This document shows, piece after piece, positions 3,262 through 46,600 of a DNA stretch of 48,743 nucleotides. The DNA is taken from the UHGV virus genome UHGV-1373020; one strand, written 5' to 3'. The DNA comes from a virus. The stretch's first letter is position 1, and every line of letters starts with the position of its first letter. Under the pieces are notes generated by a model that saw only the letters and a program-made list of their open reading frames with translations, made no database searches and was not told the DNA's origin. The position numbers were made by a program, and so were the translations under genes.

Positions 3262-3290
3262 AATCTACATCACCACCATATCCACGTCAA
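3262..3290 (-). promoter_or_regulatory. sigma70-like promoter TTGACG-N17-TAGATT for the small - strand gene
   Basis: Reverse complement reads TTGACG tggatatggtggtgatg TAGATT. The -10 lies inside the conserved 13-mer. Confidence 0.5.
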
Positions 3291-3325
3291 CATTTATTAT
3301 TGTTGATAAATCCGCACCACCACAC

Positions 3326-3354
3326 TTGACCAATCTACACCGAGCGCATAGTAT
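3326..3354 (+). promoter_or_regulatory. sigma70-like promoter TTGACC-N17-TAGTAT heading the early small-gene operon
   Basis: Exact 17-nt spacing. The spacer contains AATCTACAC, and ATCTACATCA follows directly. Confidence 0.55.
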
Positions 3355-3384
3355 ATCTACATCAGGTTTATCGGAGATAACACT

Positions 3385-3591
3385 ATGCGCAGCTATGCAG
3401 GATTCACGCAGGAGGAGAAAGAACAGGTTTATTCACTGGCACGAGCTGGTGTGCCTGATGAGGTGATTTGCCGTCGGTATGACATCGACGAGGATTTCCT
3501 GCTGCGCGTTCTGGATGATGTTTTCGTTAGCCTGCAAGAGAAGCGCGGGTATAAAGGTATCTGCTGCAAGAATGATTTTTTGAGAGGGTGA
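3385..3591 (+). CDS. hypothetical early protein (68 aa)
   Basis: GGAG lies 9 nt upstream of the ATG. Confidence 0.55.
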   Translation: MRSYAGFTQEEKEQVYSLARAGVPDEVICRRYDIDEDFLLRVLDDVFVSLQEKRGYKGICCKNDFLRG

Positions 3592-3595
3592 AAAC

Positions 3596-3793
3596 ATGAA
3601 AAGCATAATGAAAAGAATGGTACGGGCATATGATAAAGAACTGTGCGTATTCAGAAATATGCGTAATAGCAAGAAAAAGCGCAGAGCTGCGGCGCGGCAG
3701 TTAGCATCATATTATGATGAAGATGTTGCAATTGAATGCCAGGAAGCCGCTGATGAGTTTGCTCGTGATGATATTTACTATATGGTTAACTGA
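3596..3793 (+). CDS. hypothetical early protein (65 aa, basic and acidic halves)
   Basis: SD GAGAGGGTGAAAAC precedes the ATG. Confidence 0.55.
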   Translation: MKSIMKRMVRAYDKELCVFRNMRNSKKKRRAAARQLASYYDEDVAIECQEAADEFARDDIYYMVN

Positions 3794-3811
3794 TTTTGAG
3801 AGGGTGATGTG

Positions 3812-3982
3812 ATGATTGTTATTGAAGACGAAACCAAAACGCCAATGTGCACAATAGCGGTTGATTTCAATTCTGACCCAATGATTACTCAGGGTCACGA
3901 CACTATTATTATTGACAAACACCAAGCCGAGCAGCTAATCGAAGTCCTGCAACGCTGGTTTAATGGTGAGGAGATTGAGTAA
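3812..3982 (+). CDS. hypothetical early protein (56 aa)
   Basis: MIVIEDETKTPMCTIAVDFNSDPMITQGHDTIIIDKHQAEQLIEVLQRWFNGEEIE. The SD GAGAGGGTGA duplicates the upstream junction. Absent from the ORF track. Confidence 0.5.
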   Translation: MIVIEDETKTPMCTIAVDFNSDPMITQGHDTIIIDKHQAEQLIEVLQRWFNGEEIE

Positions 3983-4188
3983 TGAGCGTTTATTTTTACT
4001 GCGGTCACATCGAGCGACAAGGAAGCGTGGCGAGTGTCGGTAGTTTTTGTGGATTATCTATTGGCACCGATGCGGTTAGCGCATATGAGGACGCTATGAG
4101 GGCACAAGTGAAAGAAATTCAGGCAATCACTGAAAGCGGCGCTTTTAATCTTTCTGTTATTTTTGATAAATTCGAAAAGGTGGAGTGA
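3982..4188 (+). CDS. hypothetical early protein (68 aa)
   Basis: TAATG stop/start overlap with the upstream gene. Confidence 0.5.
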   Translation: MSVYFYCGHIERQGSVASVGSFCGLSIGTDAVSAYEDAMRAQVKEIQAITESGAFNLSVIFDKFEKVE

Positions 4189-4406
4189 TGAAAGCCGTCA
4201 AAACAATACTGTTCTGCATCATCAACCCGCACCTGATTGTGATGCTGATATTCGCTGCCATGCTTATTGGCGCAAGAAAGTCGCTTTATTATATCTCCGA
4301 CAAACTGGATGACGCGGCGCGTTACATTCAGAAGATTGACCATAAACTCGGGTCGAAGTCATACCCCGCATGGTTCAGAACGCTTGTTGATGACGAGGTG
4401 GAGTGA
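4188..4406 (+). CDS. hypothetical membrane protein (72 aa)
   Basis: GTGATG overlap with the upstream stop. One TM helix ILFCIINPHLIVMLIFAAMLIG. Confidence 0.5.
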   Translation: MKAVKTILFCIINPHLIVMLIFAAMLIGARKSLYYISDKLDDAARYIQKIDHKLGSKSYPAWFRTLVDDEVE

Positions 4407-4567
4407 TGGCGCTATTCTGGTCGTTCTGGATTCCATTGAACTTTATGTTCTGGTGGGCTATGGCTGCCGGAGTGAATGAACCGAGATGGATTCACTTTAT
4501 AGTTGGTTCACTTTTCGCTGTGGTAACTGGTGTTGTGCCATGCTTGTTGTATCAATATTTCAAATGA
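4406..4567 (+). CDS. hypothetical membrane protein (53 aa)
   Basis: MALFWSFWIPLNFMFWWAMAAG...CLLYQYFK with two hydrophobic helices. ATGA-type overlap with the upstream gene. Absent from the ORF track. Confidence 0.45.
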   Translation: MALFWSFWIPLNFMFWWAMAAGVNEPRWIHFIVGSLFAVVTGVVPCLLYQYFK

Positions 4568-4573
4568 AGGTGA

Positions 4574-4771
4574 GTGATGACAAGAAAAGAGGTTCACGAG
4601 TATTCTATTGCAGCCAGAAAGCGCGTCGAAGATGTATGGACGAATCATGGGTTACGCAGCAATAGAGCTAAATTGGTTGCAAAATGCCATCAAGTCGTAA
4701 GTGGTGACAGGATTGAGTGTTACGCGTTTAATCAGTGGATGAAGTCTGGCGTCGTAAGAGAGGTGAAATGA
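4574..4771 (+). CDS. hypothetical early protein (65 aa)
   Basis: SD AAGGTGAGTG precedes the ATG. Confidence 0.55.
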   Translation: MMTRKEVHEYSIAARKRVEDVWTNHGLRSNRAKLVAKCHQVVSGDRIECYAFNQWMKSGVVREVK

Positions 4772-5019
4772 TGGTAGTTATGATTTTTGGTCTTATCGTT
4801 ATGGTGTTCATTGCTTATATGCTTGTTAGGAATAACGCGGTTGCTGATGCGAGGATTGGGTTTATAAAGTTCTTCTATGAAGAAGACCCTAATGGATATG
4901 CCTCTGGCAAGCGATTCCATGAGGCGCTACCAAGCTACGATGAGATGCTGTGGAAGTTCTGGGTGTGGCCTTTATCAAAATTCTATCCGGCATACAGAAA
5001 CCGAAATCGCAACAAGTGA
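4771..5019 (+). CDS. hypothetical membrane protein (82 aa)
   Basis: N-terminal TM MMVVMIFGLIVMVFIAYMLV. The start overlaps the upstream stop. Confidence 0.5.
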   Translation: MVVMIFGLIVMVFIAYMLVRNNAVADARIGFIKFFYEEDPNGYASGKRFHEALPSYDEMLWKFWVWPLSKFYPAYRNRNRNK

Positions 5020-5022
5020 CCA

Positions 5023-5056
5023 TGCTATAATCCCTCCATCGTGAGGGATTTTTTAT
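5023..5056 (+). promoter_or_regulatory. extended -10 (TGcTATAAT) fused to the 5' half of a terminator hairpin (ATCCCTC-catcgt-GAGGGAT-TTTTTT)
   Basis: The TGn-TATAAT at 5023-5031 overlaps the 5' stem of the hairpin at 5030-5049, so initiated transcripts would lack the 5' arm. Confidence 0.4.
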
Positions 5057-5062
5057 TGGTGA

Positions 5063-7412
<2,350 letters not shown>

Positions 7413-7495
7413 GGGCTTTGCTTTATCTTATCAGCATGCACAGAACAAATATTATTATCGCATAGCACAATATCTCTACGACGCTGAATATTGTT

Positions 7496-8552: not shown

Positions 8553-8554
8553 AA

Positions 8555-8851: not shown

Positions 8852-8859
8852 CACCAACC

Positions 8860-9003: not shown

Positions 9004-9013
9004 AATCACACCT

Positions 9014-9235
9014 TTATCTGGCAAGAATCCACACATGCCTCAACGCAGAGAGAAATCTACCAACCCTTGTTTTCCTCTCCAAATTGACCAGATACATATT
9101 TGAAACTGAACATTTCGCTCCGTCACATATCATTGTTATTGCGTTTTTATTCCCATTTTTGAGCCTTGTGAACACAATCTCGCCCTGCCCGGTAAGACTT
9201 AGCGTATTACTTTCTTTGTTAAGCTTTATTTCCAT
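9014..9235 (-). CDS. hypothetical protein (73 aa), first gene of the - strand cassette
   Basis: The ATG at 9235 has a GAGGTG SD 6 nt upstream. Confidence 0.55.
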   Translation of the reverse strand: MEIKLNKESNTLSLTGQGEIVFTRLKNGNKNAITMICDGAKCSVSNMYLVNLERKTRVGRFLSALRHVWILAR

Positions 9236-9266
9236 CTTCATCACCTCACTCATCATTTGATGTAGA

Positions 9267-9295
9267 TACTATGCACCATCACTCAATCTACGTCA
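9267..9295 (-). promoter_or_regulatory. putative promoter TTGACG-N17-cATAGT for the - strand cassette
   Basis: Reverse complement reads TTGACG TAGATTGAGTGATGGTG CATAGT. It contains two copies of the 13-mer core. Confidence 0.45.
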
Positions 9296-9339
9296 ACACC
9301 ATTGTGATAGAATTAGTCATTATTTGAACAGGAGGCAGA

Positions 9340-10786: not shown

Positions 10787-10918
10787 GCGAAAAAAGTATG
10801 ACAAGATGGCGTCTGATGTGGCGAGTGGTCGCGCTGGTTATCAGCCTGCGGTGAAATGCAAGCTAAGCAAATCACCAAAGAAATGCTACGGAAAGCCGCC
10901 TGAATCACTGCAATAAAT

Positions 10919-11375: not shown

Positions 11376-11376
11376 A

Positions 11377-12329: not shown

Positions 12330-12392
12330 AAATTATTGTTGACCAATCTACATCATTTAGTCAATACTTATTGACGTAGATTGTACCACAAC
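12330..12392. promoter_or_regulatory. divergent control region with an inverted pair of the conserved 13-mer
   Basis: TTGACCAATCTACATCA ... TTGACGTAGATTG gives two CAATCTAC / GTAGATTG half-sites about 24 bp apart between divergent operons. Confidence 0.45.
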
Positions 12393-12410: not shown

Positions 12411-12608
12411 ATGCGATACAAAGAAATAGCAGCGAGATACCAGAAAGAGGTGCGCGAGGTTATGGAAATCCTTAACGTTCGCGAAGATACCATTAAATAT
12501 GTGGAAACTGCCATGTGTTCACTGGCGCTTGAAGCGGAGGTTGCTGGTCGTGAAAAGGCTGACGAACTTATATCTGCGGTGGTTTATAGTTCAACCAGTA
12601 ACGGTTGA
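12411..12608 (+). CDS. hypothetical protein (65 aa)
   Basis: SD AAGGTGATGTGGAA precedes the ATG at 12411. Confidence 0.5.
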   Translation: MRYKEIAARYQKEVREVMEILNVREDTIKYVETAMCSLALEAEVAGREKADELISAVVYSSTSNG

Positions 12609-12863: not shown

Positions 12864-13111
12864 CAGTGCCAAATATGCCGATGATGAATGATAACGGGTT
12901 ATTGAGTTGCCCGTTTTGTGGGTGTGATGAGGCTGGCATTGCCATAGATGAGGATGGGTGGGAATACATAGAATGCGGAGATTGTTATTGCCGCACAGAC
13001 GCATTCCGTAACAGAGAGCTAATGACTAAGTCATGGAACACACGCAATGGACACCTGTACACCGCCGACGATTTCAATCAGGCAGCAGAGGAACGCGATT
13101 GTGGACTATAA
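12860..13111 (+). CDS. lar: Lar-family restriction alleviation protein (zinc ribbon)
   Basis: CPFCG...C..C and WNTR motifs match the Lar family as recalled. GGGGAG SD. Confidence 0.6.
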   Translation: MTVPNMPMMNDNGLLSCPFCGCDEAGIAIDEDGWEYIECGDCYCRTDAFRNRELMTKSWNTRNGHLYTADDFNQAAEERDCGL

Positions 13112-13121
13112 ATCACAAATC

Positions 13122-13589
13122 ATGCGCGTGATTATCAATCATCCAGGCGCAACGCGTGCATATATTGAGAAGCATTGCGGCGGCAAGCACTCAAGCACCA
13201 CAACGCATCGTCTTCATGAAATGCTTGCGCTTGGCTTCATTCGCCGCGAGAAGTCAGTGATTCGTGGTAACAAGTGGCAGTACAAGTATTTTATCTCTGA
13301 GGATGCGGCAGGTATTGATGATGCGATTAAGTGCTATTTGCTTGATAACGCTGGCGCGGAGGTGAAAGAAATCAGTGCAGCCACTGGTTTGGATTACCGA
13401 ATTGTAAAAAGCCGCATCCGCATCATGCTCCATAACGGCGATGTAACGCGAAGCTATGACCACCACAAGAAACTGTGGCGTTACTCATGGCAGGAGCAGG
13501 AGGTAAACGTGAGCAATCTGTTTAATTCACTTCTTCTCAACGCAAGGGGTCGGCATGGGAAAAGCCAAGCGCAAGAAACAAGAGTATGA
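13122..13589 (+). CDS. hypothetical DNA-binding protein (winged-HTH-like)
   Basis: Start is taken at the ATG at 13122, after the Lar stop. Confidence 0.5.
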   Translation: MRVIINHPGATRAYIEKHCGGKHSSTTTHRLHEMLALGFIRREKSVIRGNKWQYKYFISEDAAGIDDAIKCYLLDNAGAEVKEISAATGLDYRIVKSRIRIMLHNGDVTRSYDHHKKLWRYSWQEQEVNVSNLFNSLLLNARGRHGKSQAQETRV

Positions 13590-18743: not shown

Positions 18744-18916
18744 CACTTCACCTTAATCATGTGCTGTTTTGCAACCTTCAGGCATTCTTCAAAAATGCCA
18801 CCCTTCTTCGCGCTCTGATTGCGCTTGTAATACTGAATTGCCGCATCAATTGCCATCTGGTCAATGTCAGGCAGCTTGGCGCGAAGTTGTTTTTCGATGA
18901 ATTGTTCAGCGTTCAT
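18743..18916 (-). CDS. hypothetical protein (57 aa)
   Basis: MNAEQFIEKQLRAKLPDIDQMAIDAAIQYYKRNQSAKKGGIFEECLKVAKQHMIKVK. Absent from the ORF track. Confidence 0.45.
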   Translation of the reverse strand: MNAEQFIEKQLRAKLPDIDQMAIDAAIQYYKRNQSAKKGGIFEECLKVAKQHMIKVK

Positions 18917-19122
18917 CACACATTTACCTTGTATTCATTTTGCTTGTTGGAGCGAGTACCATCATGGAAATAAATTGCGCATCTCGTTACTTCAATCCAC
19001 TTTCTTCGCTCAAGCTCAGATATAAACCGAGGCACTTTATACTTTGAAATGCCAAGTATTTTTGACATATCGCGAATGCTGTATCTTCCACTACGCAACA
19101 GAGATAATAATGATGGTGTCAT
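18916..19122 (-). CDS. HTH DNA-binding protein (68 aa)
   Basis: IRDMSKILGISKYKVPRFISELERRKWI looks like a winged HTH. Confidence 0.55.
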   Translation of the reverse strand: MTPSLLSLLRSGRYSIRDMSKILGISKYKVPRFISELERRKWIEVTRCAIYFHDGTRSNKQNEYKVNV

Positions 19123-19313
19123 AGCTTAACCCAGCCACATCCGCGAACATTGTAAACAATACCTTTCTTTTTCAGTGCCTGCATCCTTCTATCAATAACC
19201 GTAATGTCTCTAACATCATCACGAAACTTAAGCCATATATCAAAAACAGGAGTTGGTTTAACGGAAAGCATGTGTAATATCTTCAAATCTAACTCTTCAT
19301 ACTTACTCATCAC
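19119..19313 (-). CDS. hypothetical protein (64 aa)
   Basis: Overlapping stop/start with its neighbours. Confidence 0.5.
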   Translation of the reverse strand: MMSKYEELDLKILHMLSVKPTPVFDIWLKFRDDVRDITVIDRRMQALKKKGIVYNVRGCGWVKL

Positions 19314-20119
19314 ATCTTCTCCAGAATTGCCATGACTTCATGAATGTCAGCAACAGGAATCTGGATAAATTCCTCGTCCTCCTTCAACTCATGACCAGCG
19401 GGAAGAATTACATGGTCTGCTGGCTTCAATAACTCAATCAAGCGGTCTACTGGCTTAATCTTTTTCGACTTCAGCACCCTCGCTGTGACCTTGTCCTTGC
19501 CTTGTGCTTTGGCCTCTTCGACTGCCTCGTCGATAACTTTTACCGCATCATCGCCATGCTCGCGCGTTACCGCTACGGCATTTGCATAGCTGATTTGCCC
19601 TGCACTGATGCGCGCTTTTACTTCCGCCGGAACATCACCCAGCGACAGGTGCATTTGCACGTCAGATACTGAGCGACCTACCTTTTTGGCTATTTCTTCA
19701 TTCGTCCAGCCAAATCCTTTCAGTCGTGTGTAAGCCTTTGCGCGCTCAAACGGGTCAAGCTGCTTACCCTGACTGGATGACACCATGAAGGCAATTTTAT
19801 CCGCCTCATCGCCAGTAAAGTCCTTGCACTCAATACGGACGATTGGCGCGCCACGCTCAATGGCACGTAATGCGCCGAGATAGCGGTGCTGGCCATCGAG
19901 AATGCGTATTCCCTTCTCGTCGGGAATAACTGTTAATGCTGGTAATGGTTGACCTGACTCCCAGCACTGCGCGAAATATTCCACATGCTGCTCATCTGCT
20001 TCGCGGATGTTATATCCCGGCTCCAGATAAATTTGCTCCACTGGCACGAGATAGGTTTTGTTGACAGCGATGCCGTTACGCGTTTCTTTGTCTGAATAGA
20101 TTTTGCTTAGTGTTTTCAT
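19310..20119 (-). CDS. ParB-like nuclease domain protein
   Basis: ParB N-terminal motifs (GIRILDGQHRYLGALRA) and an HTH-like segment. Confidence 0.75.
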   Translation of the reverse strand: MKTLSKIYSDKETRNGIAVNKTYLVPVEQIYLEPGYNIREADEQHVEYFAQCWESGQPLPALTVIPDEKGIRILDGQHRYLGALRAIERGAPIVRIECKDFTGDEADKIAFMVSSSQGKQLDPFERAKAYTRLKGFGWTNEEIAKKVGRSVSDVQMHLSLGDVPAEVKARISAGQISYANAVAVTREHGDDAVKVIDEAVEEAKAQGKDKVTARVLKSKKIKPVDRLIELLKPADHVILPAGHELKEDEEFIQIPVADIHEVMAILEKM

Positions 20120-20746: not shown

Positions 20747-20787
20747 TTTTATCACCTCTAACATTTATTGTTGTTTCTACATCAACA

Positions 20788-20816
20788 ACTATAAACGCAC
20801 CGCCAATCTACGTCAA
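20788..20816 (-). promoter_or_regulatory. sigma70-like promoter TTGACG-N17-TATAGT for the - strand operon
   Basis: Reverse complement reads TTGACG TAGATTGGCGGTGCGTT TATAGT. It contains the 13-mer. Confidence 0.55.
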
Positions 20817-20864
20817 CAGGAATATGCTAAAATCATGCTAATCAAACAACAGGAGATTTAAGCA

Positions 20865-23868: not shown

Positions 23869-23945
23869 TGGTGGACACGGACGGATTTGAACCTTCAATC
23901 AGCCGATTATTAGTCGGTTGCTTTAACCAATTAAGCTACGTGTCC
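23869..23945 (-). tRNA. tRNA-like gene, 77 nt with encoded CCA, anticodon loop CUAAUAA (AAU by standard numbering)
   Basis: Perfect 7-bp acceptor stem GGACACG/CGTGTCC and perfect D stem GCTT/AAGC. The D loop has GG and the T loop is TTCAAAT. U33 and A37 are present. There is one A-C mismatch in the anticodon stem and one A-G mismatch in the T stem. Confidence 0.55.
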
Positions 23946-23949
23946 ATAA

Positions 23950-24480
23950 GTGCTGGTTTAAGCATTGCTAGCGTGCTTTCTTAACATCCAGCCCCGTAAC
24001 CCATACATACCCCTACATATGATTGCGATAATACTGGATGTTAAGTGTTGTGGTGGCCGGTGCTGATCTCCGGCTTGATGATTCCCCGTGTCTTGTGGCC
24101 GCTAACCTTTTCATCTACGGAGGCGGGTCAGTTAATCCCTGCCTACCCGGTGTAACCACCGGAACCCACGCGAGTTAGCGCATCAGCCTGCGCATTCACC
24201 ACAACGGTAAGAGCACTGGCTAACCAAGCGCGCCGACTCTTCACGATTATCGGCTCAATGCTCTTACCTGTTGTGTTCCCTGACTTATTAATCACACCTC
24301 AGGGACGCAGTGCGCCGAATTTGTTTACAAGGAGTCGGAAGACCTTGCTGACTTACAGGCTATTACGCCGCCATCAGAACAACATCATCGTTTGCATTTA
24401 TCTTTGTGGTCAGTTTCTAAAAAGTCAGCAAAGTCGCTCACGAAAACCATCTGAAATACAATCTACACCACAAAATAATC
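23950..24480. other. ORF-free, GC-rich, hairpin-dense non-coding region; candidate structured RNA or cis element
   Basis: No ORF of 60 aa or more in any frame across about 420 bp. Long-range pairing GGTAAGAGCA...TGCTCTTACC (10 bp) and many perfect local hairpins are present. Confidence 0.4.
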
Positions 24481-24494
24481 ACTGTCAACACCTG

Positions 24495-26203: not shown

Positions 26204-26232
26204 AATCTACATCACCACCTCGCAGGTGTCAA
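26204..26232 (-). promoter_or_regulatory. sigma70-like promoter TTGACA-N17-TAGATT
   Basis: Reverse complement reads TTGACA CCTGCGAGGTGGTGATG TAGATT. The 13-mer is embedded. Confidence 0.55.
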
Positions 26233-26243
26233 CATCAACGAGA

Positions 26244-26252
26244 TGATATAAT
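26244..26252 (+). promoter_or_regulatory. extended -10 TGaTATAAT for the tail chaperone / TMP operon (divergent from the previous promoter)
   Basis: Perfect TATAAT with TG at -15/-14, about 21-30 nt upstream of the first ATGs. Confidence 0.5.
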
Positions 26253-26272
26253 CAACATCAGTCAAATTCAGG

Positions 26273-29358: not shown

Positions 29359-33159
<3,801 letters not shown>

Positions 33160-36171: not shown

Positions 36172-36199
36172 AAGAAAGGGCCTTGCGGCCCTTTCCTTG
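36172..36199. terminator. bidirectional terminator
   Basis: AAAGGGCC-ttgc-GGCCCTTT. Confidence 0.65.
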
Positions 36200-38329: not shown

Positions 38330-38360
38330 TCAAACTCCACAAAATCACCACCAACCATGC

Positions 38361-38513
38361 TTACCACAATAAACCAGACTCATCTTCGTACCATCCATTC
38401 CATGCGTTTCCTGCATCATCATTAATGCGAAACTGCATTCCGTTGAACTCTGCATCATACAGCTCACCCTCTGTAAATCTGAAACTCGTTGAACTTGCAC
38501 AGAATAATTTCAT
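38361..38513 (-). CDS. hypothetical protein (50 aa)
   Basis: MKLFCASSTSFRFTEGELYDAEFNGMQFRINDDAGNAWNGWYEDESGLLW with a GAGGTG SD. Absent from the ORF track. Confidence 0.4.
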   Translation of the reverse strand: MKLFCASSTSFRFTEGELYDAEFNGMQFRINDDAGNAWNGWYEDESGLLW

Positions 38514-38551
38514 CTTCATCACCTCTCTTGTTATTGTTAGTTGAATCTACA

Positions 38552-38986
38552 TCAATCAACACCTGAAAGCAAGCCAAAATAGAAAAGCGTGGCTTTTTTT
38601 AGTTGTTCAGCACCGTATGCGATGGCTGCGAACTTGCCTTCTCTATGCGCTCTCTCAAGAAATTTACGTTGGTCTTTTGATACCTGAGATTTCGTTCTAT
38701 CTTCTTTCTTAAGCTCCATTACTGCGCAAGAATGAGCAACACCATCGCTTAGTATAATTACGTCGCTCACTCCGCTTTTTACGCCCATTTTTTTTCTCTT
38801 TATAACGAACTGCGCACCGCTTTTTGTCCCTGTCTCATTTGGAACATGAAACCATATAACATCAGGGAAGTGATAATCCATCCACAACCCATAAGTCATC
38901 TGTTCCGTTTCCTCTGAATTACACTCCCCACGATAACCGCTATCAAATACCCATATCCCGCTATCAAGCTGCTTCACTTTGCTCAC
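38552..38986 (-). CDS. VRR-NUC domain nuclease
   Basis: PD-(D/E)XK-type motif DVIILSDG...AVMELK. Confidence 0.7.
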   Translation of the reverse strand: MSKVKQLDSGIWVFDSGYRGECNSEETEQMTYGLWMDYHFPDVIWFHVPNETGTKSGAQFVIKRKKMGVKSGVSDVIILSDGVAHSCAVMELKKEDRTKSQVSKDQRKFLERAHREGKFAAIAYGAEQLKKATLFYFGLLSGVD

Positions 38987-40577: not shown

Positions 40578-41561
40578 CCTGCGCTTCCTCATCAAAAATA
40601 TTTACATAAAACATTTCGCGTTTTTTCGTTCCGCCGATGTAAGAATTAACTCGCGCTCCATTTAATCCAAGAAAATCATTCAATGCATTAGCTACTTCCC
40701 AACATTCACCCTCCCTGAATGCCTCAGTATGAATACATACCTGCCTGTACTTGCCATCACTTATTGTTGAATGCCCATCATCACCAAAATAAACAGCCCA
40801 GCCAACTTCGTTTAACTCCCTGCATATCTTTCCTATGCTGTACCCATTTGCTGAGTCACCATATTTCTCAGCGTACCCGTCAAGTATCTTTGTGCATGAC
40901 GTCCTGACCTGAAACCATTTGTCACCGAATCCTGGATTATCTCTTTCCCTGTATGCTGCATTAAGTTTTTTGAATCTTGCCGCCTTACACAGAGCGTGAT
41001 CTTTATTCCCCATGTTCCACATTAGTCTGTGAGTTCCCCTTTTCGTGTTCTTAATCAGGCACCCATCACCAGCAAGAGCAGCGAGTATGTTTTGATGCAA
41101 GAAGTCATCAATAACAAGGTCGCTATCAACGGTTGAATTATGATGACCAGACCTAAAATCAACATAGTAACCGTAAGGATTTTCCAGTAATGCACTCAAC
41201 CCTTTGCCCGTGTGCGGAAAAACCTTTTCGCCACAGCCACACTTGCACGAAGGAGCTTTGTCATAAATCTGTCCGACGAGCCATCTAACGACAGAGTCAT
41301 TCCAGCCTTTAGTTTTCCCGCTTCTACCCAGCAGCCGTTTGAATAAAGTTTGTGTGTACTCGTGCATTTTATTTCCTCACCGCCTCTTAATTTAATTGAT
41401 GATACACTCTTTATACCATTAGTAAATACTCTTTTAGGTTTGTGGTACATCCATTCACCAGTAACTTCATCTAAGCATTTGATTTCTTTATTTATTAAAC
41501 TATCGTCATCAATTCTCACCCACCCATCACTCGTTAATATCAGTGCATCACCAGTCAAGCA
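40419..41561 (-). mobile_element. LAGLIDADG-type intein inserted in helicase motif II (DE | CH)
   Basis: Block A starts at the Cys directly after DE. HNF...HN is followed by Cys. Removing it gives the spliced junction FVLMDE-CHQMNW, a DECH box. Confidence 0.75.
40498..41367 (-). CDS. LAGLIDADG homing-endonuclease domain of the intein, in a frame shifted from both splicing domains
   Basis: Two dodecapeptide-like motifs about 95 aa apart (ILAALAGDGCL and WAVYFGDDGHS), preceded by a CKCGCG zinc-knuckle-like DNA-recognition region. A GAGG SD lies 8-12 nt upstream of the ATG at 41367. Confidence 0.65.
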   Translation of the reverse strand: MHEYTQTLFKRLLGRSGKTKGWNDSVVRWLVGQIYDKAPSCKCGCGEKVFPHTGKGLSALLENPYGYYVDFRSGHHNSTVDSDLVIDDFLHQNILAALAGDGCLIKNTKRGTHRLMWNMGNKDHALCKAARFKKLNAAYRERDNPGFGDKWFQVRTSCTKILDGYAEKYGDSANGYSIGKICRELNEVGWAVYFGDDGHSTISDGKYRQVCIHTEAFREGECWEVANALNDFLGLNGARVNSYIGGTKKREMFYVNIFDEEAQDEFFKRVADHMEDGVEYKIKSNRVNK

Positions 41562-42044: not shown

Positions 42045-42060
42045 AGCAAATAACCTTTGT

Positions 42061-42090
42061 TGATGTTTCTACGTCAATTAGCTTATACTC
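42061..42090 (+). promoter_or_regulatory. putative promoter TTGATG-N18-TATACT for the primase gene
   Basis: The spacer carries a TTTCTACGTCAAT 13-mer variant, with CAATCTACACC downstream. Confidence 0.4.
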
Positions 42091-42119
42091 AATCTACACC
42101 AACAATCAAGGGTCAATTT

Positions 42120-43073
42120 ATGAGATACGACTGGAAAGACATTGAGCCAAAAATGCTCGGAAATTGGCAGGCCGCCATCATGTCTATCGTCAATGTGGAT
42201 AGCAGAGTTTTCAATGGCAAGCACCAGCCGTGCCCGTCATGTCTTGGCAAAGACAGGTATCGCTTTGATGACAACTTCGAAACAAAGGGCGATGGAGGAG
42301 CAATCTGCAACCAGTGCGGTTCCGGCAGCGGCATGAACTGGCTGATGAAACTCTCTGGCATGAGTTTTCCAGAAGCACTGGAGGCTCTGGGAGGATTCCT
42401 GAATATGCATCCACGCGAAAAGCTGGAGGCAATCAGGAAGGAGTTACCGAAGATAAATTACAATGATGACTTCATAACAGAGCATGAAGTCGCTGCAATC
42501 ATGGCCAAAACGACTCGTGTCGCGATGAATGAGTGGAGTTTGATAAATGGTATTGGTTGCGACATTAACGTCGCCAGAGGTAAATCTGGAGAGCTTATGG
42601 CGGTTGAGATGATGCGCGCTGACACAATGAAGCAGTGCAACGTGGCATTCATTGGCATGGATGGCGATGCATTCAGAACATTTTTCCGCGCAGGATACAA
42701 CAAGGACTCAGCCATCAACGGTAAACTCACGCGTGGTGCGATAAGCCCAATCGGAGAAGATAACGGTAAGTTCATTTATCTGGTATCTGATTATGCCGAT
42801 GCATGGAAATGCCATTACTTCACTGGTGCGCATGTCTGGTGTTGCTGGTCTCCTGAAAACATGTGGGAAGTGGTGCGTTCTGTTAGCGATGAAACGAAAG
42901 CGAGATTGCGTTGCATAGTTAATTATAAATTTGACGAACTTTGCGCTGCGGAAAACGCAGGACTACCGGTGATGCTGCCTGATGATGCGAACACAATCAG
43001 GATGGCGAAGAGAATCAGAAGAAAAATTTATGCCGCTGGCGATCTGATAAAGAAAATGTCAGTCAATAGATAA
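42120..43073 (+). CDS. DNA primase (P4-alpha-type zinc ribbon plus Toprim)
   Basis: HQPCPSCLGKDRYRFDD...GGAICNQCG zinc-binding domain, then an acidic Toprim-like core. Start is taken at 42120. The tracked ORF starts at 42057. Confidence 0.7.
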   Translation: MRYDWKDIEPKMLGNWQAAIMSIVNVDSRVFNGKHQPCPSCLGKDRYRFDDNFETKGDGGAICNQCGSGSGMNWLMKLSGMSFPEALEALGGFLNMHPREKLEAIRKELPKINYNDDFITEHEVAAIMAKTTRVAMNEWSLINGIGCDINVARGKSGELMAVEMMRADTMKQCNVAFIGMDGDAFRTFFRAGYNKDSAINGKLTRGAISPIGEDNGKFIYLVSDYADAWKCHYFTGAHVWCCWSPENMWEVVRSVSDETKARLRCIVNYKFDELCAAENAGLPVMLPDDANTIRMAKRIRRKIYAAGDLIKKMSVNR

Positions 43074-43075
43074 AA

Positions 43076-43106
43076 GAAACCCTCCGACTGGAGGGTTTTT
43101 GTTATT
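43076..43106. terminator. bidirectional terminator
   Basis: AAACCCTCC-gact-GGAGGGTTTTTGTTATT. Confidence 0.65.
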
Positions 43107-43383
43107 CCTTGAGGTTAACTTTTATTGCGTACACCTTTACAGGTTTATCACCGAAGTGCGGATGTGTGATTGTCTTTATTTCATATCCTTCATACTGGAC
43201 GTCAATTCTGCGACTGGAATCGTCTCGCTTCGGATATCCCTTTGTGATAATCAGACGGTCATATTCCCGGAGCATAATTCTCTTATTCCAGTATTCATTA
43301 CACAGGCGATATTCTTCCGTTTTCTCTCCGCGAATCATGGCATCGAAGTATTCACCTTTGACGGCAAGTTGCAGGTTAGCCAT
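43102..43383 (-). CDS. ASCH / DUF3850-like domain protein
   Basis: LQLAVKGEYFDAMIRGEKTEEYRLCNE resembles the ASCH-type consensus (h.LKI.PEYF..I..G.KT.EIR.ND) recalled from memory. Confidence 0.5.
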   Translation of the reverse strand: MANLQLAVKGEYFDAMIRGEKTEEYRLCNEYWNKRIMLREYDRLIITKGYPKRDDSSRRIDVQYEGYEIKTITHPHFGDKPVKVYAIKVNLKE

Positions 43384-43636
43384 TATTTTCCTCCAGAATC
43401 CAAACTGAGTTACCAATGCGACTATTATTTAAATCCTTTGATACAACCCCATCCTTACAAAGAGACATAAGAACCTTCCGTAGCTTTGCTGCTGTCCATT
43501 CATCATCAGGAAATTCATTCACCATCGATAGGCGTAAACTCCACGTAGCCACGGAGAACTTGCGACAAATCCCAAGTTCCTCCTCAATAGATTTTCTCTT
43601 TCTCATCACGTATAAAACTTTATCCTTCACATCCAT
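43376..43636 (-). CDS. hypothetical protein (86 aa)
   Basis: Protein-like ORF in operon context. Confidence 0.5.
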   Translation of the reverse strand: MDVKDKVLYVMRKRKSIEEELGICRKFSVATWSLRLSMVNEFPDDEWTAAKLRKVLMSLCKDGVVSKDLNNSRIGNSVWILEENNG

Positions 43637-43646
43637 TCCGTTGCCC

Positions 43647-43838
43647 TCACTTAATCATCAATTTTGAAATGTCAACATAACCAACACAAAATCTGTGCCA
43701 GTAATTATCAAGCACGTGATAATTAGACCGAATCCATACTTTGTTAATACCACTCCAGAAAAACCACGTCGAATAACCATGCGGCCTGAAACGCCATAAA
43801 CCTTCTGAGCGGCAAAGTTCGCCTGATATTGTTCTCAT
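43647..43838 (-). CDS. hypothetical protein (63 aa, Trp-rich)
   Basis: ORF only. Unusual composition. Confidence 0.3.
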   Translation of the reverse strand: MRTISGELCRSEGLWRFRPHGYSTWFFWSGINKVWIRSNYHVLDNYWHRFCVGYVDISKLMIK

Positions 43839-45430
43839 TTCAAGTTCCTCATAAATCTCATGCGCTTAACGGCAGCAGAAAGGTAATTTCTAACCGTTGA
43901 GTTCATCCGCAGACCATCCCATGAACCATCACTACACATCTTAATCGCTCTTGGGTTATCCCTGTCCAGCATTAGTGGTGAATGCTTATTTTCCTCAATA
44001 GCAAGAACAACTTCATAAACAAATTTATCCGGCGTTAATGTGATGTTATTCGAGTCAGCAGAATTGATTATCTTTTCAACTCTGTCACGGCACAGCTTGT
44101 TCTTTATAACAGACAAATAAGGCGTTTTAATGAATGCCTGCGATTCACAAATTCGCTTTATTTTTTCAACAATGTTCGACCACTCAGTATTTTCAAGACC
44201 ATCAAATGCCTGTTCACCCTCAAGGAATCTTTTCAGCCCTGCGAGGTGTTCAAGAACAGTGAGATAACCCCACTCGATATGCTCCGTCGTCACTGATGGT
44301 GTCATTCCCCGACGACTTGACAGATCGGTATACGCCGCCAGAGTTGCAAGATCGACAATCATTAGACCCATACGAGGGATAACATCACCAACAACACCAT
44401 CGCAATCACCAAGCTCACTTTCCAGTTTCATAGACAGATATCTGTGCAGTTTTTTCGCATTATCATCAGCCCATACAACGTTAGTTTTCGCGGTAAGAAC
44501 TCTACCTTTCCACTCATTGATTATTTTTCTTGAAAGCGTACCACTCACTTCCACATCCTTCATCGCTGGCATTTCCTCACCAGCAAGATGCCCAAGCTGG
44601 AACAGCACACGCCCCATACCGCCATCTTTCTGCCATGAACGCGCAGCATCTATTCCCTGCTCTGGCGTGACAGTAATCAGCGGAACAAATTTTGCGTTTT
44701 CAATTCCACCGTCTTTTGTTGCAATTTCGTACTCATTCATTGCCGACTTTAGCGCGCGCCCAACGCTGTGGTCCATCATCGCAAGGCGCTTATAATCTAT
44801 GACTCCTTTCCCATCATCGCCACCAGTAAGTGGCACTATCCATCCCTCAGCACTTGCTGCAGCCATGATGCGTTTTTGGTTTTGTTCCCACGTAAGGTTT
44901 TCAAGCAACTCCTTGATTATTGGTCTGTTAGGAACCCACACGCCGCCATCAGTGAGGCCTCTATACCACGCCATAGTACCGCCAAGATATGCATTGCGCG
45001 GGTTGTTCCAGTCTTCAAGATGTTGCTTGTCATCGTTCACAACGTAGAGCAAAGACCCGCCTCCAGCAATCAGGTCCAACTGCATCTGTTTCGTCGAGGT
45101 TGATTTGGATGCGCAAACTCTGGACCCTATTCCCAGTGCATTGGCATATGCCCTGACGAAACTCACCGGGGCGCCCTTACCTGCACCAGAGCGAGCCACG
45201 AGAAATATGCCAGTATTGCATATACTACCTGTTGGACCAATCAAGTATCGTCCAGCCATCGCCTGAGCAAGACCCAAAGCGCCAGTTAAACGATATCTTC
45301 CCCCGCCCTCACGGCGCTCAAACCCCCTTGCGATCTCATCCATAAACTCACCAAGTGCCCCGGGAGCCTCCCGCTTTATGCCCATAGCCAGAGACTCAAA
45401 ATCAATCGAACTCATCAATATACCCTCCAT
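43835..45430 (-). CDS. hypothetical 531-aa protein with a degenerate P-loop-like motif (replication module)
   Basis: LVARSGAGKGAPV, with Lys followed by Gly rather than Ser/Thr. The largest ORF in the replication block. Confidence 0.7.
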   Translation of the reverse strand: MEGILMSSIDFESLAMGIKREAPGALGEFMDEIARGFERREGGGRYRLTGALGLAQAMAGRYLIGPTGSICNTGIFLVARSGAGKGAPVSFVRAYANALGIGSRVCASKSTSTKQMQLDLIAGGGSLLYVVNDDKQHLEDWNNPRNAYLGGTMAWYRGLTDGGVWVPNRPIIKELLENLTWEQNQKRIMAAASAEGWIVPLTGGDDGKGVIDYKRLAMMDHSVGRALKSAMNEYEIATKDGGIENAKFVPLITVTPEQGIDAARSWQKDGGMGRVLFQLGHLAGEEMPAMKDVEVSGTLSRKIINEWKGRVLTAKTNVVWADDNAKKLHRYLSMKLESELGDCDGVVGDVIPRMGLMIVDLATLAAYTDLSSRRGMTPSVTTEHIEWGYLTVLEHLAGLKRFLEGEQAFDGLENTEWSNIVEKIKRICESQAFIKTPYLSVIKNKLCRDRVEKIINSADSNNITLTPDKFVYEVVLAIEENKHSPLMLDRDNPRAIKMCSDGSWDGLRMNSTVRNYLSAAVKRMRFMRNLK

Positions 45431-45744
45431 ACGCGCAAGAATTTACCCGGGATAACACCATGTTTCACCGTTAACACAGCACCAACCCTGTCAGCCTCAA
45501 TTTTTAGCGCCTTCTGAAGTGACGCCATTGTCATCTGAAAACCTCGCTCTATATCGTATGCGTAGCACCCATCTCTGCCACCAATCAAAATTGAAGTTGA
45601 ATACCCGTTCTCAAAGTAAAACTGACACCCATCAGGAGCGGTAAGATTATTTATCACGTCGTGAGCAAGCGATGTCGTAACAGGGAATATCGGAGCGCAA
45701 CTCATACTCACCTCACTCAACTCGCTTAATGTGCAAAACTTCAT
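45415..45744 (-). CDS. hypothetical protein (109 aa)
   Basis: Operon context. Confidence 0.5.
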   Translation of the reverse strand: MKFCTLSELSEVSMSCAPIFPVTTSLAHDVINNLTAPDGCQFYFENGYSTSILIGGRDGCYAYDIERGFQMTMASLQKALKIEADRVGAVLTVKHGVIPGKFLRVWRVY

Positions 45745-45961
45745 CGAAATATGAGCACGTTCTGAATTTCATCCCAAAATCCTCACCAACCCTTCCGAGA
45801 CACGCGCGAAATCTTTCAACAGACAGCCCTTTATCTGCAATATCCTCATAAGCAATCGAATTAACCTGACCAACATCCATATGTTTTGCAACGCGATACA
45901 CGAACTCCATCTTTGAACCATCACGATACATTTTGTTTCTCATAGTAACCTCCATCCGCAT
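45713..45961 (-). CDS. hypothetical protein (82 aa), first gene of the - strand replication operon
   Basis: Borders the AT-rich iteron region. Confidence 0.5.
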   Translation of the reverse strand: MRMEVTMRNKMYRDGSKMEFVYRVAKHMDVGQVNSIAYEDIADKGLSVERFRACLGRVGEDFGMKFRTCSYFDEVLHIKRVE

Positions 45962-46109
45962 TCCAACAGGAACTATAGATAAAAAATAAAATTAGCGCAA
46001 CACAAAACAGGCCTAACCAGCAACAATAGCTACCACACTTAACAACTGGTCAGACCACCATTTCGTATCTGATATATGTGGATGGTGCCTGTCGTTCAAT
46101 TTGCACTCG

Positions 46110-46470
46110 ATTTTTACCTAATTTACCGTATATTTATTGGTCGGTTTTTTGCATAACTAATTGATTTATAGGATTTTACCGGTTTTACCGGAACTCTAAG
46201 GAGTATTTTCATCATTGATAGTAGTAGTATATTAATTGGTCTAATTTTTAAAGAACTCTAATAAAATCAATATATTAATATAAGAAAGTAACTTACTTAC
46301 TTATATAGGATTTACCGGGTAAAACCGGTAACTCCTCCGCAGGCCGCGTCATTACTGGATTGATTTTTACCACCTGTAGGTAAATACAGTAGTTTTTAAG
46401 TAAGTATTGTTTTTGTAAGATGTTGATTACCGGTACTTTATTTGAAAAGCCGGGATTTACCGGGTTTTTG
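46110..46470. repeat. iteron array (TTTACCGG family, at least 6 copies in direct and inverted orientation) flanking an extremely AT-rich segment; candidate replication origin
   Basis: Copies at 46123, a tandem pair TTTTACCGG x2 at 46175-46192, an inverted pair TTTACCGGG / AAAACCGGTAA at 46311-46331, GATTACCGGTAC at 46425, and GATTTACCGGG at 46454. AT-rich repeats at 46200-46310 (ACTTACTTACTT, TAGTAGTAGT). Confidence 0.55.
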
Positions 46471-46542
46471 TGGTGTGATTAATAATCGCGCAATTGGTTA
46501 TGTTTCACCAGAACCCACTAATGCGACAACTGAAAATCATAT

Positions 46543-46571
46543 TGACGTAGAATCGCAACTGATGTAGATTG
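46543..46571 (+). promoter_or_regulatory. sigma70-like promoter TTGACG-N17-TAGATT for the + strand early operon
   Basis: TTGACG TAGAATCGCAACTGATG TAGATT. Two 13-mer copies. Confidence 0.55.
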
Positions 46572-46600
46572 GATTCACCGAAACAAACGAGGATGTGGAG

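What the first reader, a model, noticed from the sequence alone, without database searches (positions are those of the whole stretch)
3262..46573. Phage-specific 13-mer AATCTACRTCAMC (at least 13 copies) built into sigma70-like promoters at every module boundary
Copies lie at about 3262, 3333, 3352, 9259, 9285, 12339, 12374, 20776, 20806, 24462, 26204, 38543, 42069, 42092, 46545 and 46562. All are intergenic. In several the reverse complement supplies a -10 TAGATT exactly 17 nt downstream of a TTGACG or TTGACA -35 (3262-3290, 26204-26232, 46543-46571). In others TTGACG abuts TAGATTG, or the motif fills the spacer (20788-20816 with a TATAGT -10, 3326-3354). At 12330-12392 two copies form an inverted pair between divergent operons. 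This exact reuse suggests the motif is also an operator for a phage-encoded or host regulator, not merely a promoter consensus.
Basis: seen in the sequence. Interest (0 to 1): 0.6.

Follow-up and report, generated by a model that had tools for sequence, protein, structure and literature searches.

The report
Shared operator-like motif in phage promoters
An 11-base word (TGAYGTAGATT) sits in about 17 copies on top of nearly all early promoters of this lytic Skatevirus-like phage and is conserved across the related phage genera, so it looks like the binding site of a still unidentified phage regulator rather than a plain promoter consensus.

Summary
The stated 13-mer matches exactly only 4 times. 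Its core, read on the other strand as U = TGAYGTAGATT, occurs 18 times (4.5 expected), and 15 copies lie in the 10% of the genome that is intergenic (P~1e-12).

U is the most over-represented 9-mer in this window and in Swiduovirus swi2, Klebsiella phage BUCT541 and Vibrio phage pYD38-A. Across divergent relatives the U blocks are invariant while adjacent spacer bases are randomised.

U overlaps sigma70-type promoter elements:
- TGACG copies supply a -35 (TTGACG-17-TATAGT or TAGATT).
- TGATG copies supply a TAGATT -10.
- The half that sigma70 does not use is still conserved.
- Other copies fill spacers, or the slot just after the -10, in either orientation.

This fits a DNA-binding protein site (operator) laid over early promoters. 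Late structural operons use extended -10 promoters, and three of seven have no U nearby.

One is unique to this phage. The other is divergent and is deleted in a viable minimal mutant that keeps all U regions. A conserved ParB/KorB-like protein is the best, still unproven, candidate. I found no published description. I rate it a new member of a known kind, of moderate interest.

The parts
3262..3274 (-). U copy GGTGATGTAGATT. Its TAGATT (3267-3262) is the -10 of the leftward promoter for gene 3233-3081.
   Evidence: it ends 28 nt before the start codon
3279..3291 (-). Degenerate U copy GTTGACGTGGATA. Its TTGACG (3290-3285) is the -35 of the same promoter, with a 17-nt spacer.
3333..3345 (-). 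U copy CTCGGTGTAGATT lying in the spacer of the rightward promoter TTGACC(3326-3331)-17-TAGTAT(3349-3354).
3354..3366 (-). U copy CCTGATGTAGATA abutting the 3' side of the TAGTAT -10 of the rightward promoter (start-site slot).
9256..9268 (+). U copy TTTGATGTAGATA immediately after the CATAGT -10 (9273-9268) of the leftward promoter, in reverse orientation relative to that promoter.
9285..9297 (-). U copy GTTGACGTAGATT. Its TTGACG (9296-9291) is the -35 of the leftward promoter. It also covers the -35 region of the rightward extended -10 lysis promoter (TGATAGAAT at 9305).
12345..12357 (-). U copy AATGATGTAGATT, left arm of an inverted pair. It lies in the spacer of the rightward promoter TTGACC(12339)-18-AATACT(12368).
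12370..12382 (+). U copy ATTGACGTAGATT, right arm of the inverted pair. It starts 3 nt after the AATACT -10 and ends 28 nt before the start codon at 12411.
20774..20786 (-). U copy GTTGATGTAGAAA directly after the TATAGT -10 (20793-20788) of the leftward promoter of the ParB-like operon (start-site slot).
20805..20817 (-). U copy GTTGACGTAGATT. Its TTGACG (20816-20811) is the -35 of the leftward promoter (17-nt spacer to TATAGT). It also covers the -35 region of the rightward extended -10 promoter TGCTAAAAT (20825).
24460..24472 (-). U copy TGTGGTGTAGATT. Its TAGATT is the -10 of the leftward promoter with TTGACA at 24488-24483 (17-nt spacer), pointing toward tRNA-Ile at 23945-23869.
26204..26216 (-). 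U copy GGTGATGTAGATT. Its TAGATT is the -10 of the leftward promoter with TTGACA at 26232-26227 (17-nt spacer).
26250..26262 (-). Degenerate copy ACTGATGTTGATT overlapping the 3' end of the rightward extended -10 promoter TGATATAAT (26244-26252).
38544..38556 (-). U copy ATTGATGTAGATT. Its TAGATT is the -10 of an internal leftward promoter (TTGCTT at 38572-38567, 17-nt spacer). It ends 30 nt before the start codon at 38513.
42066..42078 (-). U copy ATTGACGTAGAAA. It lies in the spacer of the rightward primase promoter (TTGATG 42060-18-TATACT 42089) and in the start-site slot of the leftward promoter (TTGATT 42109-16-TATAAG 42082). No sigma70 role was found for the copy itself.
42091..42103 (-). 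U copy GTTGGTGTAGATT. It lies just after the TATACT -10 of the primase promoter and in the spacer of the leftward promoter. No sigma70 role was found for the copy itself.
46541..46553 (+). U copy ATTGACGTAGAAT. Its TTGACG (46542-46547) is the -35 of the rightward promoter of the small-gene (early-type) operon starting at 46601.
46558..46570 (+). U copy ACTGATGTAGATT. Its TAGATT (46565-46570) is the -10 of the same promoter (17-nt spacer). It ends 30 nt before the start codon.
19310..20119 (-). ParB/KorB-like HTH protein (269 aa), the best available candidate for the factor that binds U. No binding evidence exists.
   Evidence: 80% identity to Roufvirus-type phages; retained in the 36-kb minimal seszw mutant
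13101..13589 (+).
18916..19122 (-).

Best explanation
U (TGAYGTAGATT) is the recognition site of a sequence-specific DNA-binding protein encoded by phages of the Skatevirus/Swiduovirus/Roufvirus clade. The sites are laid over the core elements of host sigma70-dependent promoters that drive the early-type operons. These operons hold small genes, replication and recombination genes, the ParB-like operon and a tRNA.

The sites are asymmetric. They are used singly, as direct pairs at several offsets (10, 17, 21-25 and 31 bp) or as inverted pairs. They occupy four promoter slots:
- the -35, as the TGACG variant, which doubles as TTGACG;
- the -10, as the TGATG variant, whose TAGATT doubles as the -10 hexamer;
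- the spacer;
- the start-site region just after the -10, in either orientation.

Inferred mechanism: host RNA polymerase fires these promoters at infection. An early phage protein then accumulates, binds U and occludes the polymerase. This turns early transcription down globally, much as lambda Cro or phi29 p4 do. In four junctions the leftward early promoter overlaps, back to back, a rightward late promoter of the extended -10 type that has no -35. Shutting off the early promoter would there free the late one.

Shown: motif statistics, location, conservation, and overlap with promoter-like hexamers. Inferred: protein binding, the sign of regulation, and timing. The binder is unidentified. 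The conserved ParB/KorB-like protein (19310-20119) is the best candidate.
For: (1) Enrichment and intergenic restriction. There are 18 copies against 4.5 expected, 15 of them in 10.4% of the sequence, P~1e-12. It is the top over-represented 9-mer in the window, swi2, BUCT541 and pYD38-A.

(2) Phylogenetic footprints. In the promoter of gene 46601, TTGACGTAGA and TGATGTAGATTG are invariant in 14 divergent sequences. The 5-7 bases between them and everything upstream are randomised. The same holds at 12345-12382, 24460-24488 and 26204-26232.

(3) The halves not needed by sigma70 are conserved. Five of the 7 intergenic TTGACG are followed by TAGAWW and a sixth by TGGATA. Eleven of 12 intergenic TAGATT are preceded by TGRYG-like bases. 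The exception in each set (TTGACG at 40878; TAGATT at 30367, CACCG prefix) lies in a gap of my gene list that is probably coding. None of 35 coding TTGACG and none of 13 coding TAGATT show this. These unused halves are not paired with a second hexamer above background: 13 of 114 and 0 of 105, against 9.6% and 3.9% after shuffling.

(4) Division of labour. Among clade copies, 62 of 114 TGACG copies have a -10 located 16-18 nt downstream, and 60 of 105 TGATG copies have a -35 located 16-18 nt upstream.

(5) Copies with no sigma70 role exist. Examples are both copies at 42066-42103, 20774, 3333, 3354 and 9256. The slot just after the -10 is filled in either orientation. The arrangement -35 | motif | -10 | motif recurs at three rightward promoters (3326, 12339, 42060) and is kept in BUCT541 although its hexamers differ.

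(6) U is tied to early-type promoters. Seven rightward structural or lysis operons have extended -10 promoters without a -35, and three of them (5023, 14758, 33157) have no U nearby.

(7) Clade restriction argues for a phage-encoded reader. IMG/VR hits outside the clade were coding tandem repeats, apart from one 4.4-kb contig.

(8) Candidate. The ParB/KorB-like HTH protein is 80% identical across genera that share the identical motif. It is retained in the 35,993-bp minimal seszw mutant. Its own operon promoter carries two copies, at the -35 and at the start site.
Against: No binding, footprint, transcription start or expression data exist for any phage of this clade in the literature I could search. 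The proximal copy ends 27-35 nt before the start codon in seven operons. That spacing also fits a promoter element read by polymerase. A repressor covering nearly all early promoters is typical of temperate phages or plasmids, yet no prophage or plasmid copy was found in 5,426 E. coli genomes or 72,556 plasmids. ParB/KorB proteins normally bind palindromes. U is asymmetric, and no repeated palindrome exists in the window. No other conserved protein with a clear DNA-binding domain was found. The early/late assignment rests on gene content only.
Confidence: 0.55

Rival explanations
1. U is a positive promoter-specificity element. It would be read by host RNA polymerase carrying a phage-encoded sigma-like factor or sigma appropriator (as with T4 MotA/AsiA boxes or T4 gp55 late promoters), or by a class II activator. 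Each sense-oriented copy would then mark a transcription start about 7 nt downstream.
For: The proximal sense copy ends 27-35 nt before the start codon in seven operons. The motif orientation follows the direction of the small-gene, replication and recombination operons: 13 copies on the minus strand and 4 on the plus strand. At the two late promoters at 9305 and 20825 the motif sits at an identical register over the -35 region (23 nt to the -10). That register is kept within 1 nt in BUCT541.
Against: Early promoters must fire before any phage protein is made, and they already have consensus -35 hexamers at 17-nt spacing. The motif occurs at the -35, spacer, -10 and start-site positions and in both orientations relative to conserved sigma70-type promoters. 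Three of seven late promoters have no U. The Pfam scans of 20 selected proteins gave no sigma-type or MotA-like match apart from a sub-threshold Sigma70_r4_2 hit on the ParB-like protein's HTH; most of the ~95 predicted proteins were not scanned.
Confidence: 0.15
2. U is only cis promoter sequence. An ancestral strong sigma70 promoter cassette (TTGACGTAGAAT-N5-TGATGTAGATT) was copied around the genome. The shared bases are inherited, or they tune promoter strength, and no dedicated binding protein exists.
For: Each half resembles a sigma70 hexamer. A 17-bp offset between two copies automatically gives a -35/17/-10 promoter, and this is seen at 3262/3279 and 46541/46558, and in BUCT541 at 43775/43792. 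Many copies do serve as a -35 or a -10.
Against: The bases sigma70 does not contact are invariant between genera, while flanking spacer bases at the same loci have diverged completely. The unused halves do not pair with a partner hexamer above background. Several copies have no sigma70 role at all (42066, 42091, 20774, 3333, 3354, 9256), yet they are conserved.
Confidence: 0.15
3. U is the binding site of a host (enterobacterial) transcription factor or nucleoid protein that the phage exploits.
For: The motif is identical in phages listed as infecting Salmonella, Escherichia, Shigella and Klebsiella. One unrelated 4.4-kb viral contig (L114) has three TTGACGTAGATT copies in a divergent intergenic region.
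Against: Among IMG/VR hits the paired motif was otherwise confined to this clade. It does not match any E. coli regulator consensus that I can recall; that is from memory, not a test.
Confidence: 0.08

Closest known systems
Phage P1 C1 repressor operators (asymmetric 17-bp sites dispersed over the genome), from my own knowledge
   Same: Both have many copies of an asymmetric site scattered over the whole phage genome. The sites overlap promoters and occur singly or as overlapping or inverted pairs. P1 also encodes a ParB.
   Different: P1 is a temperate plasmid prophage and C1 is its immunity repressor. This clade appears strictly lytic, the site is 11 bp with a different sequence, and the limited protein scans named no repressor.
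Mycobacteriophage L5 gp71 operator and 'stoperator' sites (13-bp asymmetric GGTGGMTGTCAAG), from my own knowledge
   Same: Both are 11-13-bp asymmetric sites in short intergenic regions throughout the genome, and both contain a -35-like hexamer. In L5 the reverse complement carries TTGACA, and one copy overlaps the -35 of the early promoter.
   Different: L5 is temperate. Most stoperators block elongation and are orientation-dependent. Here the copies sit on promoter cores, and the same slot is filled in either orientation.
KorB/KorA global regulon of IncP plasmid RK2 (ParB-family CTPase clamp; PMC11790492)
   Same: Both involve a ParB-family protein encoded by a mobile element and a short operator repeated at many promoters to coordinate the whole genome. 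This phage encodes a ParB/KorB-like HTH protein.
   Different: The KorB operator is a 13-bp palindrome that usually lies upstream of, or far from, promoters. U is asymmetric and overlaps the -35, -10 and start site. No KorA partner was identified, and binding of the phage protein to U is untested.
Bacillus phage phi29 protein p4 early/late switch and lambda Cro turn-off of PL/PR, from my own knowledge
   Same: In each case an early phage protein binds sites overlapping early promoters in a divergent control region. It represses them and favours a late promoter that lacks a good -35.
   Different: Those systems act at one or two control regions. Here about nine regions share the site, and three of seven predicted late promoters have no site nearby.
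T4 MotA boxes of middle promoters, from my own knowledge
   Same: Both are phage-specific short asymmetric words associated with the -35 region of promoters that keep a sigma70 -10.
   Different: MotA boxes replace the -35 at a fixed position and orientation. U is found at four different promoter positions and in both orientations, and it coexists with consensus -35 hexamers.

Membership tests
sigma70-dependent bacterial promoter | A -35 hexamer close to TTGACA and a -10 hexamer TAnnnT separated by 16-18 bp | tested here: met
   TTGACG/TTGACA-17-TAGATT occurs at 3290-3262, 24488-24460, 26232-26204 and 46542-46570. TTGACG-17-TATAGT or CATAGT occurs at 20816-20788 and 9296-9268. TTGACC-17/18 occurs at 3326 and 12339. 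Clade-wide pairing is 28-33% against 4-10% after flank shuffling. A whole-region scan alone is not enriched: 26 sites against 27 expected.
sigma70-dependent bacterial promoter | Located upstream of, and oriented toward, a gene, with a short leader | tested here: met
   The proximal copies end 27-35 nt before the start codon of a co-oriented gene in seven operons.
sigma70-dependent bacterial promoter | Mapped transcription start and dependence on the host holoenzyme | not testable with these tools
   No start-site or RNA-seq data for this clade were found.
Dispersed asymmetric repressor operators (P1 C1 / L5 gp71 type) | A non-palindromic site of 11-17 bp in many copies over the whole genome, concentrated in intergenic or promoter DNA | tested here: met
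   There are 17-18 copies in nine regulatory regions, 15 of 18 intergenic. The same nine regions carry it in BUCT541.
Dispersed asymmetric repressor operators (P1 C1 / L5 gp71 type) | Temperate lifestyle, with the site-binding protein acting as immunity repressor | tested here: not met
   No copy of the capsid-to-ParB region was found in 5,426 complete E. coli genomes or 72,556 plasmids. The clade is described as lytic in the papers read.
Dispersed asymmetric repressor operators (P1 C1 / L5 gp71 type) | Demonstrated binding of a cognate protein to the site | not testable with these tools
   This needs EMSA, footprinting or ChIP.
ParB/KorB operator (parS / OB) | A ParB-family HTH protein encoded by the element | tested here: met
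   The protein at 19310-20119 matches HTH_ParB (2.5e-11), KorB (1.1e-5), phrog_1033 (1e-90), and PDB Spo0J, ParB, Noc and KorB chains.
ParB/KorB operator (parS / OB) | Palindromic 13-16-bp site bound by a dimer | tested here: not met
   U is asymmetric. The only perfect palindromes with arms of 8 or more bases are five intergenic G+C-rich hairpins at gene ends (two were also flagged as terminators by the scan) and two unique coding sites.
T4 MotA-box middle promoter | A box at a fixed position (about -30) and orientation that replaces the -35 | tested here: not met
   The motif occurs at the -35, spacer, -10 and start-site positions and in both orientations, and it coexists with consensus -35 hexamers.

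The most novel reading that the evidence does not exclude
A ParB/KorB-family protein of a strictly lytic siphophage reads asymmetric 11-bp 'half-site' boxes placed on the -35, -10 and start-site positions of almost every early promoter. It thereby acts as the master switch that shuts off early transcription and releases the overlapping, -35-less late promoters. This would be a ParB-type global transcription programme in a virulent phage, using a site built from a -35-like and a -10-like hexamer joined head to tail.
Probability: 0.15. Interest if true: 0.7.

Novelty: new member of a known kind. Interest (0 to 1): 0.45.

Why it matters
Skatevirus, Swiduovirus and Roufvirus phages are being isolated in large numbers for therapy against Salmonella, E. 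coli and Klebsiella, and they are used as chassis for genome reduction. Their gene regulation is essentially undescribed.

A single 11-bp word that marks nearly all early promoters gives three things:
- an immediate regulatory map of these genomes, with roughly 16 transcription units, early promoters carrying the motif and late promoters of the extended -10 type;
- a testable handle for finding the phage's master regulator;
- a warning for engineering, because deletions or insertions in these short junctions would disturb overlapping divergent promoters.

It is also a clear natural case of one short site evolving two variants. TGACG doubles as a -35 and TGATG-TAGATT doubles as a -10, while both keep a common recognition core.

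Tried and rejected
1. Literature searches by sequence words returned only unrelated primer hits. Searches by genus and phage names found no description of the motif. The Vi phage E1 paper is not held, and the CiPGr paper has no supplement held.

2. I scanned bacterial genomes for a two-copy pattern. This says nothing about prophages.

3. I looked for co-variation using phages with more distant ParB homologues. Kp4864-1 (48% identity) and Vibrio phage 393E50-1 (34%) show no U enrichment and no obvious substitute motif, so the test is uninformative.

4. I checked for palindromic parS-like sites and found none.

5. I tested gene 3385-3591 (68 aa) as a hidden HTH regulator. AlphaFold gives a confident three-helix bundle (pLDDT 82). 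Foldseek matches to NarL/GerE, Hin/resolvase and KorA HTH domains are weak (E >= 0.29). The putative recognition helix is acidic and the protein's pI is 5.0. It is not a convincing DNA binder.

6. I folded the conserved leader downstream of the 24460 promoter as RNA and found no structure (z = 0.6).

7. Orthologue extraction anchored on both flanks was too strict. I replaced it with start-codon-anchored extraction.

8. Rfam found only the tRNA.

9. I considered and rejected several other readings from memory. These were a canonical extended -10 (the TG of U lies 2 nt too far upstream), sigma70-dependent pause elements of lambdoid PR' type (the start-site copies are not TAnnnT on the non-template strand), and sites for IHF, FNR, NarL, MetJ or DnaA (no match to the consensus sequences as I recall them; not a formal test).

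Full report
WHAT THE WINDOW IS

The 48.7-kb window is essentially a complete siphophage genome. It is 89-90% identical over about 70% of its length to Escherichia phage swi2 (Swiduovirus), C1, Shigella phages Sf11 and DS8, Salmonella phage SeSz-2 (Skatevirus) and BASEL phage Bas80. It is more distantly related (about 76% over a third of the genome) to Klebsiella phage BUCT541 and Vibrio phage pYD38-A, which are Roufvirus-type.

My own gene call and the annotation of relatives show about 16 transcription units that alternate in direction. Structural and lysis operons are mostly on the plus strand. On the minus strand are small-gene, replication and recombination operons, the ParB-like operon and a tRNA-Ile.

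THE OBSERVATION

The 13-mer as written matches exactly only four times, against 0 expected. With up to two mismatches there are 20 hits against 3.6 expected.

Reading the other strand gives a cleaner unit, U = TGAYGTAGATT. With GTAGA exact and up to two mismatches there are 18 hits against 4.5 +/- 2.2 in first-order Markov simulations. Fifteen lie in the 10.4% of the sequence that is intergenic (P = 1e-12). One more touches a stop codon. Two coding hits are probably chance.

TGAYGTAGA is the most over-represented 9-mer of the window. Two further degenerate copies exist, at 3279-3291 and 26250-26262. Two look-alikes (CATCTTCATCACC at 9233 and 38511) are Shine-Dalgarno plus ATG of minus-strand genes.

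All eight divergent junctions and one internal gap carry U. Convergent junctions carry hairpin terminators instead.

CONSERVATION

The same word is the top or near-top 9-mer in swi2, BUCT541 and pYD38-A. In BUCT541 it occupies the same nine regulatory regions.

A scan of IMG/VR for two nearby copies returned mainly 44-49-kb contigs of this clade. Loci with no protein similarity to the window were coding tandem repeats, apart from one 4.4-kb contig, L114.

Alignments of regions upstream of orthologous first genes are the strongest evidence.
- Ahead of gene 46601, TTGACGTAGA and TGATGTAGATTG are invariant in 14 divergent sequences. The 5-7 bases between them vary, and everything upstream has been replaced by unrelated iteron families.
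- Ahead of the major tail gene, AATCTACACCAC, the TTGACA box and TGATATAAT are conserved islands.
- The same pattern holds at 26204-26262 and 12345-12382.

RELATION TO PROMOTERS

Many copies double as sigma70 elements.
- TTGACG or TTGACA, a 17-nt spacer and TAGATT occur at 3290-3262, 24488-24460, 26232-26204 and 46542-46570.
- TTGACG-17-TATAGT occurs at 20816-20788, and TTGACG-17-CATAGT at 9296-9268.

Across 219 distinct clade copies there is a clean division of labour. Of 114 TGACG copies, 62 have a -10-like hexamer 16-18 nt downstream. Of 105 TGATG copies, 60 have a -35-like hexamer 16-18 nt upstream of their TAGATT. Shuffled flanks give 3.9% and 9.6%. The proximal sense copy ends 27-35 nt before the start codon in seven operons.

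WHY IT IS MORE THAN A PROMOTER CONSENSUS

(i) The half of U that sigma70 does not use is still conserved. Five of the seven intergenic TTGACG are followed by TAGAWW and a sixth by TGGATA. Eleven of twelve intergenic TAGATT are preceded by TGRYG-like bases. The exception in each set lies in a gap of my gene list that is probably coding (TTGACG at 40878; TAGATT at 30367, which has a CACCG prefix). None of 35 coding TTGACG and none of 13 coding TAGATT show the pattern.

(ii) Those unused halves are not themselves paired with a partner hexamer above background: 13 of 114 and 0 of 105.

(iii) Several conserved copies have no sigma70 role. These are both copies at 42066-42103, 20774-20786, 3333-3345, 3354-3366 and 9256-9268.

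(iv) The slot just 3' of the -10 hexamer is filled by the motif in either orientation. It is in the sense orientation at the promoters ending 20788, 42082 and 12368, and in reverse at those ending 3354, 9268, 42089 and 26252.

(v) The arrangement -35 | motif | -10 | motif recurs at three rightward promoters (3326, 12339, 42060). It is retained at the primase promoter of BUCT541 although the hexamers themselves differ.

(vi) Copy-to-copy offsets are 10, 17, 21-25 and 31 bp, plus inverted pairs, so there is no fixed helical phasing.

Together these features point to an asymmetric site read by a protein that tolerates Y at position 4. The promoter role then selects C (a better -35) or T.

EARLY AND LATE PROMOTERS

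Seven plus-strand structural or lysis operons are preceded by extended -10 motifs (TGnTAnAAT) without a -35. They lie at 5023, 9305, 14758, 20825, 24495, 26244 and 33157. Four of these sit back to back with a leftward U-type promoter whose -35 falls inside their own upstream region. The other three have no U nearby.

So U is a feature of the early-type promoters. This temporal assignment is an inference from gene content only. A factor bound to U would occlude polymerase at early promoters. At four junctions it would also free the overlapping late promoter. This resembles lambda Cro turn-off or the phi29 p4 switch, which I cite from my own knowledge.

WHO BINDS IT

- The 68-aa winged-helix protein (18916-19122) has no homologue in any other locus and cannot be the general factor.
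- The MarR-like protein (13101-13589; phrog_1687) is only 36-38% identical in Roufvirus-type phages, which have the identical motif. It is absent from the 35,993-bp viable seszw mutant (MZ375352), which keeps every U region. That mutant comes from the genome-reduction study PMC9825161.
- The ParB/KorB-like HTH protein (19310-20119) is 80% identical across the genera and is retained in that minimal genome and in every seszw record listed. It lies in an operon whose promoter carries U at the -35 and at the start site. However, ParB and KorB proteins classically bind palindromes, and none is repeated here.
- Gene 3385-3591 folds as a three-helix bundle (pLDDT 82) with only weak HTH matches and an acidic third helix.

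The binder is therefore unidentified. ParB/KorB-like is my best guess, at about one chance in four.

LIFESTYLE

No copy of the capsid-to-ParB segment exists in 5,426 complete E. coli genomes or in 72,556 plasmids. The papers I read treat the group as lytic. This argues against an immunity-repressor reading of the P1 C1 or L5 gp71 type, although the site architecture is most like those systems.

VERDICT

I found no prior description. It is a new member of a known kind: a dispersed operator overlapping promoters. Its notable features are the fused -35-like/-10-like site with two specialised variants and its occurrence in a strictly lytic phage clade. Interest is moderate.

Noticed in passing
window 46176-46463: Six copies of TTACCGG (as TTTTACCGG, ATTTACCGGG and similar) lie in 290 bp of the 660-bp gap between the replication operon and the early small-gene operon. 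The window has 16 copies in all against 2.5 expected. This looks like an iteron or origin cluster. At the same locus relatives carry unrelated repeat families: GTTACCGG in L001/L020, CCCCACGA-type in L086/L109/L007/L095, and GGGCGA-type in L036/L079. The promoter next to the cluster is invariant.
   Followed up: partly
window 5023, 9305, 14758, 20825, 24495, 26244, 33157 (plus strand): Extended -10 motifs (TGnTAnAAT) without a recognisable -35 precede the portal, lysis, capsid, connector, tail-tube, tail and tailspike operons. They look like a distinct late promoter class. The one at 5023 overlaps a hairpin with a T-run at 5029-5050.
   Followed up: partly
window 23869-23945 (minus) and 24380-24455: A tRNA-Ile (anticodon AAT) lies about 500 nt downstream of the U-type promoter at 24488-24460. 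The first ~45 nt of the presumed leader (GTTTTCGTGAGCGACTTTGCTGACTTTTTAGAAACTG) are conserved as far as BUCT541, but the region shows no stable RNA fold (z = 0.6).
   Followed up: partly
window 9233-9245 and 38511-38523: An identical CATCTTCATCACC occurs at the starts of two minus-strand genes (GGTGATGAAGATG, which is SD + ATG). These are look-alikes of the motif that a mismatch search picks up.
   Followed up: yes
L114 611-906 (IMGVR_UViG contig, 4.4 kb): An unrelated viral contig has three TTGACGTAGATT copies and several ACGTCAAC repeats in a divergent intergenic region beside an ORF that by eye resembles a small terminase subunit (not scanned against any library). None of its genes resembles a window protein. 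This is either convergence or a hint that the word has a host-side meaning.
   Followed up: partly
window 3385-3591: A 68-aa protein conserved in the whole clade and kept in the minimal seszw genome. AlphaFold predicts a three-helix bundle (pLDDT 82) with weak similarity to NarL/GerE, Hin and KorA HTH domains. Only 16 homologues were found in 5.8 billion proteins. Several relatives annotate a 113-aa version whose extension runs across the promoter region and is probably an over-call.
   Followed up: partly
window 3058-3077 and 7397-7419: Perfect G+C-rich hairpins flanked by T-runs on both strands look like bidirectional terminators at junctions where opposing units meet. Unannotated G+C-rich palindromes also lie at 36174, 43077, 17757 and 25264.
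   Followed up: no
L125 (MZ375352, seszw_290S): The 36-kb genome-reduced seszw mutant lacks homologues of 47 of my 95 window gene calls, including the MarR-like, RusA-like and most small early genes. Some of these may also be absent from wild-type seszw, which I did not compare. It keeps every motif-bearing junction. At the lysis-operon junction it has a small deletion that removes the sequence between the two copies there.
   Followed up: partly
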